36,175 nt of DNA. Origin: Perkinsus olseni (Eukaryota). A program made the position numbers and the translations under genes. The stretch covers positions 62,001 through 98,175 of the forward strand of contig JABANN010000050.1 of the NCBI GenBank assembly GCA_013115125.1. The letters are read 5' to 3'. Of the stretch, positions 10,367 to 13,300 are shown piece after piece (positions within the stretch are counted from its first letter, which is position 1; each line of letters opens with the position of its first letter). Under the pieces are notes generated by a model. The model was not told the DNA's origin, did no database searches, and saw only the letters and a list, made by a program, of their open reading frames with translations.

Positions 10367-13300
10367 CTAAGACTCCGAAGCGATGGCAGTGATTCTACTC
10401 AGAATCTCATCGGATATCGAGTCCAAATTGGACCTCTCCGAGTCAGCCGGGGACTCGATCATACCAGCGAGGTCGTTGGCCAGCTGTAAGTCTTCTTCCG
10501 AAAAAGTCCCTCTGACGTTGAGGAGTTTTTCCAATCCACGGCGAGCATCCTCACCATCCACGGCCGCAACAGGCTGAACTATCGGCACCCGCTTGACCTC
10601 TCTGATCAACCTGCTGGTCTGCGGGCATTTGTACTTCTCAAACTGTTTGCAAAGCTCGAAGAAGTGCTCAGTCATTCGGGAGTCGAAACCTTCAGAGTCA
10701 CCGTGAGAATCGATCTCCCTTTTCAAGCAGGAGAGTATCCCCTGAGGGCTCCACGGGTACTGCCAGCTCGCCAACTCTGTCGTGCCCGGGACCTCTGCCA
10801 TTAACAAGGCCAAGACTTTCACATCAACACCATTGATCATAAAGTTCTTGGCTGATGTTTTGACGCTGTGAGTGTTGGTGTGATTTAAGTCAAGAAAGAT
10901 GACATGTGTCGACCCCTGCTTCGATCTCTTCACATTGCGCTCGACGAAGTCACCGCTGGCCCTCCTCAAGGCAGCCCCCAAGGCTGTGCTGTCCATAGCG
11001 CCCCTCTTAGCAAAGTCCCTGGCATTGATCAGAGCGGCATTACTCACGACGGCGTCCGAGCAGCCGTCGTCCTCCGCGCGGCTCTTCCCTTGCAGTAGCT
11101 TCGCCCTATTCACCTTGAGCTTGTCGAACATGGTCCGAAGAAGTTGGCTCGCCCCGGAGCCTGGCAGCCCCAGCGGGAGGACGAGGAGGACGGTTCTCGA
11201 CGCCCTCGGCGTGTCGCCAAGCATCCTGTGTACAGCATCACGCAGAAGCTTCTCTGAGGCGGGGCTCGCCGTCTTCACTCCTCTCGGTGGGTTTTTCGAC
11301 GCTTGTTTATACCACCTCGCGAACAGCCCTCCTTGTTCGCTCATATCAGACGCGAAGAATCTTTCGTCCTGCGTCGACTTATCATCATCACCAGCGTGAG
11401 CTAGAGTCCGAGTGATGACGTCTTGGATGGCCCCTTCCCAGCCATACTTGATGACAGCCACTCGCTCGTGGGGGAACTTGAATCGGAATAGAAAGCCCAG
11501 CGTGCACGCGTGCACAATATGATCACCACCGTCGTCTAACAGCTTCTGGATTTGCCTTTCCCCAGGAACCCCGTCTTCCGTCAGCAGATCTCTCGGTACC
11601 ACTCCTGGAGGTGCATGAATGATCACAACCATACCCCTCCTGCTCTGCGTCTCCTCGACTCTCGATGTAACGCCCTCGGTTAGAGCCCCGGCGGACTCCC
11701 GTGATGGCGCGGTCACCTGTTCATGAGACCGCTCTGCGGCAGCGACCGGGTCAATGGCAATGACGGCCTCCTGATCACCCACGGGAACGTCAGTCGGAGC
11801 AATGACCTTGGCCTCCACCACAGACGACGGCGACTTTTCTGGCGGACTCGCCGGTGACGACGACGCTGATCCATCCACTGCGGCAGAGTCATCCACCTCA
11901 ACAGCAGTGGCCTCGTCTGCTACAGTCATGATAGTATCCGGTGGGCTCTCGTCGACGACGACCTCAGCTTCGATCACGGGTGTTTCATCCACGCTCTTGA
12001 AAGCAGCAATATGGTCGACTGGGTTGGTTGTTGCTGAGAGACCCGATGATAGTGAATCTTCATCCTCCTCTCTCTCCTCGAATTCTTGCTCCGCCGCGAC
12101 ATCCTCAGGGAGGCTTTCTTCGGCCGCCGCCATCGGCTTCCCTCTCACAGGCGCCCCATTGCGCAACAACCGGGCTATAGCCGTCTTCAGTCTTGCCTTG
12201 TCCGAGACCGTCTCGAGGGACGAGGCATCAGGGATCTCCTTCTCCTGCTGAGCGAACCATGCTCCGATAAGACCGCTCTGCTCACCCAGCTTCGCCGAGG
12301 CGAAACGTCGCTCTCCCTCCAACAAATTTTTATGAGACTTCTTCCACCTGGCCCTCTTCACCGAGCTATTGAGGATGTCGCCAACTCGCCTGTCCCAGCC
12401 AATCCTCACAACCCCGGTCACAGGCGCGCCTCCAGCCCACCCAGGCGCGTAAAGGACATGCTTGCCGCCACCTCTGCGGAGACTCTCGATGGTCTCGACG
12501 TTGGCAACCACATCATCAGTGATCAGCTCGTGTGGCACGTAGCCCGGCGGAGCATCGACTAGGACGATACGACACTCGCTCCCCAATGTTTCGTTTCGGC
12601 ATTGCTGCTGCTGCTGCTGCTGCTGCTCGGCTTCGAATTGCTCAATAATCTCAGGCAACTCCTCGACCGATGAGGCCATTCGAACCCAATCCCTCTCCCT
12701 GCCATTCTCCCTCGCTGCTATGTGATAGCAGCGTGTTATCTCCTCCACCTGATCTTCCGCGTCCATCTCGAAGAACTCAACGTCAGCATTGCAGAGATTC
12801 ATCCGACCGGCCGTCTCGAAGGATCTCATCATAACATCGTCGACGCTGCCGTCCCAACCAACACTGATCACTTTGATCTCCTCCTCCTCAGGGCGGTGCT
12901 TCATGAAGGAAATATCCCGCGTACGAGCAACGTGCATGCCACCCCTGCGCACCATGTCACTAAGGGTGCCCGTAAAATCGACCTCAATCGAGAAAGTCAG
13001 CATGTCGGCAGGCACGATACCCGGAGGGGCATGGATCAAGACAACCAAGCTATTCTTCGGGGCCTGTCGAGGACTCTCCGCCGCCTTCTCTGCAAACTGT
13101 AAGAACTTCCCATGCACAGCCCGGCAGTTCCACTGCCCAGCAGCAGTAGCAACTTTCCCAATATTCTTGAACAGAGCCACGTAGGCCTCGAATGCATAGC
13201 TGCTGCCGACTTTGTCGTCTAGGATTCTCTCACACTGCCTCCTGAAGCACTTCACACCAGCCTGGGCCTTCAGACCACGGCCCGCTAGCGCGGACAAGTC

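What the first reader, a model, noticed from the sequence alone, without database searches (positions are those of the whole stretch)
11210..13050. Uncharacterised ~140-aa 'HAPPGxVP...GW' domain amplified from one copy to three
Seen: three diverged copies start near 13046 (VVLIHAPPGIVP), 12568 (IVLVDAPPGYVP) and 11629 (VVIIHAPPGVVP), against one in the ligase near 17883 (VVVIHAPPGSVP). Shared pattern: GG.H(V/I), V...GW(D/E), D(V/I)..(R/S), FF......Q...(I/F)..(W/C)Y, then a final strand and helix. Copies are separated by a poly-Q linker and a long acidic S/A/E-rich linker. Inference: strand-APPG, a later strand and a lid-like helix resemble a truncated NMP-kinase-type P-loop fold lacking GK(T/S). 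Its amplification while catalytic sites decayed suggests it carries the selected function.
Basis: partly seen in the sequence, partly recalled or inferred. Interest (0 to 1): 0.75.

Follow-up and report, generated by a model that had tools for sequence, protein, structure and literature searches.

The report
Dead-kinase-like domain tripled in pseudo-ligase
An unannotated module of about 140 residues lies between the ligase and kinase parts of a Perkinsus tRNA-repair enzyme; it is predicted to fold like a small kinase that has lost its catalytic loop, and the neighbouring catalytically dead copy of the enzyme carries three of them.

Summary
The window is Perkinsus olseni DNA with two tandem minus-strand paralogues. 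Gene A is a Trl1/RNL-type trifunctional tRNA ligase with one 'HAPPG' module. Gene B has lost the ligase, kinase and CPD catalytic signatures and carries three modules, separated by a poly-Q run and a disordered acidic linker.

The four copies are clearly homologous: 6 of 6 BLASTP pairs give E 6e-9 to 1e-26. None matches Pfam or any PDB sequence.

AlphaFold2 gives a confident alpha/beta model (pLDDT 90.8). Its best Foldseek matches in PDB and BFVD are mostly P-loop NMP and polynucleotide kinases, but all are weak (E at least 0.008, TM at most 0.52). The Walker A GK[ST] is absent.

An origin from the adjacent kinase domain is not shown (hhalign P 0.018-0.055).

The module is probably not Perkinsus-specific. 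22 unnamed non-Perkinsus homologues with a long ligase-to-kinase spacing carry a similar segment (hhalign probability 72%, P 3e-5).

The claim that the module alone carries the selected function is not supported. The dead kinase domain is as conserved as the best-kept copy.

I read it as a non-catalytic structural adaptor. Its function is inferred, not shown.

The parts
17445..17909 (-). Single 'HAPPG' module of the active ligase (gene A); residues about 479-631 of P0003
   Evidence: AF2 gives pLDDT 90.8 with element order b1-a-b2-a-a-b3-a-a-a-b4-a.
12584..13063 (-). Copy 1 of the module in the paralogue (gene B); acidic, pI 4.58
   Evidence: In the three-copy AF2 model the blocks have pLDDT 68-87 and the same element order.
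12602..12627 (-). Poly-Q run between copy 1 and copy 2
   Evidence: It is absent from orthologues P0009 and P0014, where all 15 of 15 positions are gaps.
12119..12583 (-). Copy 2 of the module; the most diverged, with a shortened b2-b3 connection; pI 9.71
11648..12118 (-). Acidic S/A/E/V-rich linker, predicted disordered
   Evidence: pI 4.05. pLDDT is about 30 over model residues 303-474. Only 26% identical to P0014, with 50 gaps.
11189..11647 (-). Copy 3 of the module. It sits directly before the dead kinase domain and is closest to the ligase copy (35.7% identity, E 1.3e-26)
10370..11188 (-). Degenerate kinase domain (KIN*) and C-terminal tail of gene B. The P-loop reads GLPGSGAS at 11147-11170, and no CPD domain follows
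   Evidence: It is 69% identical to P0014.
10367..13558 (-). Large 3' exon/frame of gene B (paralogue). Upstream exons reach about 15750
   Evidence: tblastn of P0008, P0009 and P0012.
14703..14726 (-). Gene B counterpart of ligase motif I; it reads VKDCPEGE instead of DKANGEN
16074..18404 (-). Last exon/frame of gene A. It encodes the helical ligase C-region, the module, the kinase (P-loop GVPGIGKT at 17382-17405) and the CPD (HVTLSF at 16437-16454, HITMAL at 16233-16250)
19003..19023 (-). Gene A ligase motif I (DKANGEN, Lys182 of P0003), in an upstream exon

Best explanation
The 'HAPPG' module is a folded alpha/beta domain of about 140 residues. It has the general shape of a small P-loop (NMP/polynucleotide) kinase but lacks the Walker A GK[ST] loop, so it is most likely non-catalytic.

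In the active Perkinsus Trl1/RNL-type tRNA ligase it sits between the helical C-terminal part of the ligase domain and the true polynucleotide kinase domain. A similar segment probably occupies the same position in other long-spacer homologues.

I infer that it works as a structural adaptor or docking module. It would set the geometry between the sealing (LIG) and healing (KIN) sites, or recruit partners, rather than act as an enzyme.

Gene B is a tandem paralogue that lost the ligase, kinase and CPD catalytic signatures. It kept the folds of the module and of the kinase domain, and it added two more modules on flexible linkers. It is most likely a pseudo-enzyme scaffold.

Shown: homology of the four copies, the confident fold, the absent Walker A, the decayed catalytic residues, and conservation of all three copies in a distant orthologue. 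Inferred: the kinase-fold relationship (weak), homology with non-Perkinsus spacers (moderate), and the adaptor/scaffold function (no direct evidence).
For: Copies and fold:
- The four copies are homologous (6 of 6 pairs, E 6e-9 to 1e-26).
- AF2 of the ligase copy gives pLDDT 90.8 and pTM 0.86.
- In the three-copy model all three paralogue copies show the same element order, with block pLDDT about 65-90, while the acidic linker is about 30.

Structural neighbours:
- Foldseek on PDB: the best match is E. coli guanylate kinase 2anc_F (E 0.011, prob 0.98, TM 0.51/0.52). The listed rows are almost all P-loop NTPases, namely GMP/AMP/TMP kinases, gluconokinase, RecA/RadA, MeaB and G-alpha. They include 9drz and 9d8a. 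9D8A is a Mucorales tRNA-splicing RNA 5'-OH kinase (passages of PMC11571804).
- Foldseek on BFVD: the named rows include dTMP, guanylate and adenylate kinases, 'AAA domain' proteins and a Zeta-toxin-domain protein.
- After strand 1 the sequence reads APPGxVP, with no GK[ST].

Evidence beyond Perkinsus:
- 15 homologues, 13 of them non-Perkinsus, have a KxNG-to-P-loop spacing of 440-600. Their position-defined segments align with a hhhh[TSAC]PP ... hhhhG[WFY] pattern.
- A profile from those 15 segments finds 5 further non-seed proteins (E 2e-16 to 3e-4).
- The iterated profile converges on 36 proteins, 22 of them non-Perkinsus.
- hhalign of Perkinsus-only against 21 non-Perkinsus segments gives probability 72%, P 3.3e-5, in the expected register.
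- Homologues with a spacing of about 340 (P0017, P0020) have no match.

Paralogue decay and constraint:
- P0009, a 68%-identical P. olseni variant of gene B, keeps only 16 of 31 family-invariant residues. The motif I lysine position is occupied by Cys (K182>C).
- Other catalytic positions are also changed: N184>E, E360>A, K383>F, and P-loop K649>A.
- There is no CPD domain.
- All three copies are present in P0014, which is 52% identical. Identities are c1 58%, c2 50%, c3 74%, KIN* 69% and acidic linker 26%.
Against: Fold:
- No Foldseek match reaches E<=0.001 (0 of 500 in PDB, 0 of 500 in BFVD).
- TM is at most 0.52 and rmsd 6-8 A. A generic three-layer alpha/beta fold could give such lists.
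- I had no coordinates, so the kinase strand order was not checked.
- hhalign of the module against the family's own kinase-domain profile is not significant (P 0.018 and 0.055).

Homology beyond Perkinsus:
- A Perkinsus-only HMM found nothing outside Perkinsus among 146 homologues at E<=10.
- A non-Perkinsus-only HMM hit only P0006 (E 0.0028) above decoys; the best decoy scored 0.063. P0014 scored 1.3, and P0001, P0003 and P0009 did not appear in the 25 best rows printed.
- hhalign against the Lys/Asn-rich subgroup alone gave P 0.11.
- 42 of 63 long (>=850 aa) non-Perkinsus homologues have no match.
- The AF2 alignment contained those distant rows, so the model is not independent of the homology assumption.

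Function:
- There is no direct evidence for it.
- Net charge varies from -15 (c1) to +6 (c2). This argues against a uniform RNA-binding surface but says nothing positive.
- Only one column of the module (G546) is invariant across the 20-sequence family alignment.
Confidence: 0.5

Rival explanations
1. The module is a tandem internal duplicate of the adjacent polynucleotide kinase domain that lost its P-loop. It would be a true pseudokinase by descent, not only by shape.
For: - It lies immediately N-terminal to KIN.
- Both begin with a hydrophobic strand followed by a Pro/Gly-rich loop: VVVIHAPPGSVP against VFVVAPIGVPGIGKT.
- The Foldseek rows include tRNA-splicing RNA kinases 9drz and 9d8a.
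- The weak hhalign match pairs the module's b3-GWD-helix with the kinase's YPWS-helix region.
Against: - hhalign gives P 0.018 and 0.055 with probability 1-2.6%, which is not significant.
- The Foldseek top hits are NMP kinases rather than polynucleotide kinases.
- The module has 4 predicted strands and is about 100 residues shorter than KIN.
Confidence: 0.2
2. The module is a Perkinsus-specific invention. Its likeness to spacer segments of other homologues is only positional, reflecting compositional and secondary-structure similarity.
For: - The Perkinsus-only HMM finds no non-Perkinsus protein at E<=10 among 146.
- Word-based searches return only Perkinsus proteins.
- hhalign against one subgroup gives P 0.11.
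- The non-Perkinsus HMM barely separates P0006 from decoys.
Against: - hhalign against all 21 non-Perkinsus segments gives probability 72%, P 3.3e-5, in the same register.
- The position is the same, between the helical LIG C-region and the P-loop.
- The hhhh-x-PP and hhhh-G-[WFY] motifs recur in segments that were chosen only by position.
- AF2 confidence was high with an alignment made largely of these rows.
Confidence: 0.2
3. The module still binds a small ligand or an RNA end, such as a nucleotide, a 5'-phosphate or a 2'-phosphate, through a new site. It would then act as a sensor or substrate-handover site, and gene B would be a three-site RNA or nucleotide binder.
For: - Polar residues invariant in the four window copies are T26, H45, D79 and Q108, plus W73.
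- C-terminal add-on domains of RNA ligases are known to confer substrate specificity: the T4 Rnl1 C domain and the Trl1-LIG C domain (passages of PMC6379707).
Against: - There is no Walker A Lys/Ser/Thr.
- D79 and Q108 are already changed in the P. chesapeaki ligase (GWDEEPEEIL, EKKRALI).
- Only G546 is invariant in the wider family.
- pI ranges from 4.6 to 9.7 among the copies.
Confidence: 0.15
4. Gene B is a decaying pseudogene, and its extra copies are neutral debris of tandem duplication.
For: - The catalytic motifs of all three activities are lost.
- The poly-Q run and the acidic linker evolve fast.
Against: - The frame is open for 1063 codons.
- All three copies and KIN* are present in a 52%-identical orthologue, at 50-74% identity against 26% for the linker.
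- All three copies are predicted as folded.
- P. olseni records annotate it as a protein.
Confidence: 0.05

Closest known systems
P-loop NMP kinases (guanylate, adenylate, thymidylate kinase) and gluconokinase
   Same: They are the best structural neighbours of the AF2 model. Examples are 2anc_F (E 0.011, TM 0.51/0.52), 3t61_B and 3tr0, with TM 0.45-0.51. The same class leads the named rows in BFVD. The alpha/beta layout starts with a strand followed by a loop.
   Different: The module has no GxxxxGK[ST]. It has only 4 predicted strands in about 140 residues. All matches have E>0.001 and 10-15% identity. No sequence-level relationship was detected.
Polynucleotide kinase domain of Trl1-type tRNA ligases, and stand-alone Mucorales RNA 5'-OH kinases (PDB 9D8A, 9DRZ)
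   Same: They appear among the Foldseek rows (E 0.045-0.048, TM 0.40-0.44). The module sits directly beside such a domain in the same polypeptide.
   Different: Profile-profile comparison with the family's own KIN domain is not significant. The catalytic P-loop, Asp and lid Arg residues have no counterparts.
Fungal Trl1 LIG-KIN unit (Chaetomium thermophilum structure; passages of PMC12621585)
   Same: Gene A has the same three catalytic modules in the same order.
   Different: In fungi LIG and KIN pack directly into a compact unit. Here about 150 extra residues intervene: KxNG-to-P-loop spacing is 461 in P0003, against about 340 in the short-spacer homologues P0017 and P0020.
Plant tRNA ligase AtRNL
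   Same: It is trifunctional with a long ligase-to-kinase spacing: Lys152 motif I and Ser701 in the kinase P-loop (passages of PMC3964908 and PMC11571804).
   Different: The literature I read does not describe a domain there.
C-terminal specificity domains of RNA ligases (T4 Rnl1 C domain, Trl1-LIG C domain)
   Same: These are add-on modules after the nucleotidyltransferase core that tune substrate choice (passages of PMC6379707). They are a functional analogy for an adaptor role.
   Different: As I recall, those domains are all-helical; this comes from memory, not from a call. This module is alpha/beta and lies after a helical region that probably corresponds to them.

Membership tests
Trl1/RNL-type trifunctional tRNA ligase (gene A) | Ligase nucleotidyltransferase motif I KxNG with the adenylylated lysine | tested here: met
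   K182-A-N-G in P0003, at window 19003-19023. K182 and G185 are invariant in the 20-sequence family alignment. The Pfam RNA_lig_T4_1 match is below its cut-off (E 8.3e-4, 19.7 bits against 28.3).
Trl1/RNL-type trifunctional tRNA ligase (gene A) | Central P-loop polynucleotide kinase (GxGK[ST]) | tested here: met
   GVPGIGKT at 17382-17405. Pfam gives only sub-threshold AAA rows.
Trl1/RNL-type trifunctional tRNA ligase (gene A) | C-terminal 2H cyclic phosphodiesterase with two HxT motifs | tested here: met
   HVTL at residue 960 and HITM at residue 1028 of P0003. The Pfam LigT_PEase match is only E 0.075.
Trl1/RNL-type trifunctional tRNA ligase (gene B, the three-copy paralogue) | The same three catalytic signatures | tested here: not met
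   Motif I reads KDCPEG/KECAEG, the P-loop reads GLPGSGAS, and there is no CPD domain. P0009 keeps 16 of 31 family-invariant residues. Gene B is homologous to the family but is not an active member.
P-loop NMP/polynucleotide kinase fold (the module) | Walker A GxxxxGK[ST] after strand 1 | tested here: not met
   All four copies read APPGxVP. The wider family reads x-P-P.
P-loop NMP/polynucleotide kinase fold (the module) | Overall fold similarity to solved members | tested here: inconclusive
   P-loop kinases dominate the lists, but the best E is 0.011 (PDB) and 0.0083 (BFVD), TM is at most 0.52, and no match reaches E<=0.001.
P-loop NMP/polynucleotide kinase fold (the module) | Parallel sheet with the kinase strand order and helix packing | not testable with these tools
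   The tools return secondary structure and scores only, with no coordinates.
P-loop NMP/polynucleotide kinase fold (the module) | Sequence-profile relationship to a kinase family | tested here: not met
   hhalign against the family's KIN profile gives P 0.018 and 0.055. There is no Pfam kinase match and no PDB sequence match.
Any curated Pfam domain (the module) | Match at or above the gathering score | tested here: not met
   Three of 4 copies match 0 families at E<=10. Copy 3 matches only DUF927 (E 0.2) and DUF7301 (E 0.27), far below their cut-offs.

The most novel reading that the evidence does not exclude
The module would be an ancient, so far undescribed pseudokinase domain, born from a duplication of the polynucleotide kinase domain. 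It would be shared by the long-spacer (plant- and alveolate-type) tRNA ligases, bridging the sealing and healing sites. Perkinsus would then have turned a dead copy of the ligase, with three such modules on flexible tethers, into a regulator or scaffold of RNA repair or tRNA splicing.
Probability: 0.15. Interest if true: 0.65.

Novelty: new variant of a known kind. Interest (0 to 1): 0.45.

Why it matters
Trl1/RNL-type tRNA ligases are studied as drug targets and as models of multi-step RNA repair. The only solved LIG-KIN arrangement is fungal, where the two domains touch directly (passages of PMC12621585). A folded extra domain between them would mean that the long-spacer ligases of protists, and possibly plants, organise substrate hand-over differently. 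It would also explain why their 'ligase domain' looks so long. A catalytically dead paralogue that keeps and multiplies only the non-catalytic folds is a clean natural example of a pseudo-enzyme, and it could point to a partner or regulator of the pathway. None of this is established yet. The present value is a defined, confidently folded, unannotated domain family with clear computational tests.

Tried and rejected
- Complex prediction with LIG (130-478), KIN (632-870) and the module (479-631) of P0003: verdict 'no answer', score 0.00. The alignment was not used and the partner's fold was uncertain in at least one run. This is no evidence either way.
- Foldseek with the three-copy model (pTM 0.32): only TM 0.06-0.14 matches to helicases and others, so uninformative.
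- ESM Atlas with the ligase copy: the best score was 0.80 to unnamed clusters, below the 0.9 lead level, and there was no structure search.
- Word-based homologue searches returned only Perkinsus proteins: 5 for P0002, 7 for P0001 and 4 for alignment A4. The taxa of the distant homologues therefore stayed unnamed.
- The listing of cluster members for ten of the distant homologues could not be made because the database was switched off.
- Tree of 11 Perkinsus copies plus 5 outgroup segments: only the copy-3 clade has support (94/97), and 9 of 13 inner branches are open, so the order of duplications is unresolved.
- PDB sequence searches found nothing relevant with P0002, P0003 or alignment A1.
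- Two papers on plant tRNA ligase (PMC1345694, PMC546159) are not held. The AtRNL 1-675 ligase-domain boundary that I recall from them is therefore unverified and is not used as evidence.
- Literature searches for a described extra or pseudokinase domain:
  - 'tRNA ligase' + 'pseudokinase' gave 37 papers; none of the 10 listed was relevant by title or abstract.
  - 'RLG1' + 'tRNA ligase' + 'AlphaFold' gave 3 papers. I read passages of one relevant paper, which does not mention an additional domain.
  - 'Perkinsus' + 'tRNA ligase' gave 1 unrelated paper.
  - 'Trl1' + 'alveolate' gave 3 papers, none on this.
- Not checked: metagenome contigs and viral contigs (closed); genome contigs (prokaryotes only, not used); any AlphaFold DB model of plant or protist ligases (no library on hand); supplements of the papers.
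Full report
**What is in the window**

The window matches Perkinsus olseni. The frame at 16074..18404 is 100% identical to NCBI 'hypothetical protein FOZ61_008597, partial [Perkinsus olseni]' (P0003, 1084 aa).

Two tandem genes lie on the minus strand. Gene A has its last exon at 16074..18404 and upstream exons to about 20060. It encodes:
- ligase motif I, K182-A-N-G;
- a helical region;
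- one 'HAPPG' module;
- a P-loop kinase, GVPGIGKT;
- a 2H phosphodiesterase with HVTL and HITM.

This is the Trl1/RNL-type 'heal and seal' architecture. Pfam sees it only below threshold (RNA_lig_T4_1 at E 8.3e-4).

Gene B has a 1063-codon open frame at 10367..13558 and upstream exons to about 15750. It is a paralogue, 28-29% identical to gene A over the shared parts.

**The observation**

They are homologous beyond doubt. All 6 of 6 BLASTP pairs give E 5.8e-9 to 1.3e-26 at 25.5-35.7% identity, and 17 columns are invariant.

A poly-Q run (12602-12627) separates copies 1 and 2. A 157-residue acidic linker (pI 4.05) separates copies 2 and 3.

**Is it annotated?**

No.
- Pfam gives nothing for three copies and only chance-level rows for the fourth.
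- PDB sequence searches with the proteins and with a four-copy profile give nothing relevant.
- The ESM Atlas gives no usable lead.

**Fold**

I used an alignment of the four window copies plus 19 full-length homologues, of which only the columns opposite the 155-residue query count. AlphaFold2 then gives pLDDT 90.8 and pTM 0.86. The element order is b1, a long loop, a, b2, two short helices, b3, three helices, b4, a.

A second job covered the whole three-copy stretch (625 aa, 11-row alignment). It gives the same order three times at moderate confidence, and pLDDT about 30 for the acidic linker.

Foldseek with the single-module model finds no match at E<=0.001 in PDB or BFVD. The best rows are nevertheless consistent:
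- E. coli guanylate kinase 2anc_F (E 0.011, prob 0.98, TM 0.51/0.52);
- gluconokinase, adenylate, thymidylate and UMP/CMP kinases;
- two Mucorales kinases, 9drz and 9d8a;
- RecA/RadA, MeaB and G-alpha.

9D8A is the tRNA-splicing RNA 5'-OH kinase of PMC11571804 (passages). In BFVD the named rows include dTMP, guanylate and adenylate kinases and 'AAA domain' proteins. They also include some RNA-polymerase polyprotein pieces.

After strand 1 the module reads APPGxVP, with no GK[ST]. I could not check strand order because no coordinates are returned.

**Origin**

A profile of the module does not significantly match a profile of 38 kinase domains from the same protein family (hhalign P 0.018; Perkinsus-only profile P 0.055). 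Descent from the neighbouring kinase domain is therefore an open idea, not a result.

**Range**

An exhaustive HMMER search used a profile of P0003 plus its P. chesapeaki orthologue. It found 484 proteins at E<=0.001, and the best 150 are listed. Most match through the ligase region.

A Perkinsus-only module HMM finds only one of the other 146 proteins, P0057, a three-copy fragment that I take to be Perkinsus.

Fifteen proteins, 13 of them non-Perkinsus, have a KxNG-to-P-loop spacing of 440-600 residues (Perkinsus has 454-461). The segments just upstream of their P-loops were chosen by position only. They align with a hydrophobic strand followed by [TSAC]-P-P, and a later hydrophobic strand ending in G-[WFY].

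A profile of these 15 segments picks up five more non-seed proteins (E 2e-16 to 3e-4). Iteration converges on 36 proteins, 22 of them non-Perkinsus. Among non-Perkinsus homologues of at least 850 aa, 21 match and 42 do not.

The independent tests are only moderate:
- hhalign of Perkinsus-only against 21 non-Perkinsus segments gives probability 72%, P 3.3e-5, in the right register.
- A non-Perkinsus-only HMM lifts just P0006 (E 0.0028) above reversed and shuffled decoys, whose best score was 0.063.
- By subgroup, hhalign gives P 2e-4 for the Ala/Arg-rich group and P 0.11 for the Lys/Asn-rich group.

I conclude that the module is probably a fast-evolving domain shared by long-spacer homologues and absent from short-spacer ones such as P0017 and P0020. 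This is not proven. The taxa of these homologues are unknown to me.

**The paralogue**

P0009, a 68%-identical P. olseni variant of gene B, keeps 16 of 31 residues that are invariant in the family. Catalytic positions are changed:
- the motif I lysine position is shifted (K182>C in the alignment, reading KECAEGE);
- N184>E, Q189>A, E360>A, K383>F and P-loop K649>A.

The window's own gene B reads VKDCPEGE and GLPGSGAS. It ends without a CPD domain.

All three modules are present in P0014, an unnamed protein 52% identical to gene B. The triplication therefore predates that split.

Region by region against P0014, identity is 58% (copy 1), 50% (copy 2), 74% (copy 3), 69% (dead kinase domain) and 26% (acidic linker). 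The poly-Q run is absent from P0014. The folded parts are under constraint and the linkers are not.

**Mechanism**

I commit to a non-catalytic structural adaptor: a kinase-shaped domain without a phosphate-binding loop, placed between the sealing and healing domains.

The reasoning is as follows.
- In fungal Trl1 these two domains form one compact unit, and the RNA 5' end must travel about 50 A between the sites (passages of PMC12621585). An inserted domain would change that geometry.
- C-terminal add-ons of RNA ligases are known to set substrate specificity (passages of PMC6379707).
- A role as a uniform RNA-binding surface is unlikely, because the copies range from pI 4.6 to 9.7.
- Only one glycine of the module is invariant across the wider family, which fits a structural rather than a catalytic or ligand-binding role.

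Gene B then reads as a pseudo-enzyme scaffold with three docking modules on flexible tethers. All of this functional part is inference. The one interaction test I ran gave no answer.

**Novelty**

The enzyme class is known. The module is unannotated, and I found no description of it in the searches made (passages read). The three-module dead paralogue is a new variant. Interest is moderate.

Noticed in passing
window 7355-7851 (-): This is a third, partial copy of the ligase family lying about 2.5 kb downstream of gene B's stop: a CPD-domain segment with both HxT motifs (HVTLSF at 7743-7760, HITMAL at 7525-7542). It is 92.7% identical to the C-terminus of P0007, a P. olseni kinase+CPD protein, over 41 aa, and 91-97% identical to parts of P0003. 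It could be a stand-alone CPD gene or the remnant of a third tandem paralogue.
   Followed up: partly
window 12119-12583 (-), compared with P0008: The NCBI model P0008 (FOZ61_000420) lacks 46 residues inside copy 2 (VLYAPGW...KNLLE), including the conserved GW strand. These residues are present in the window frame and in P0009 and P0014, and are predicted as strands. The gap looks like a wrongly called intron in that record.
   Followed up: no
window 8781-9009: A tandem array of a 21-bp unit, 10.9 copies at 93% match. It would encode a 7-residue repeat in open frames on both strands (for example GPGGIQV on +). A second 21/42-bp A/G-rich array lies at 8368-8464.
   Followed up: no
window 13558-15750 (-) and 18404-20061 (-): Both genes have several short 5' exons and one very long 3' exon. 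The ligase catalytic core is split by introns, whereas the module, kinase and CPD parts are intron-free.
   Followed up: partly
window 1-36175: GC skew is negative over most of the first 23 kb (for example -0.31 at 17001-18000), matching the minus-strand coding of the large genes there.
   Followed up: no
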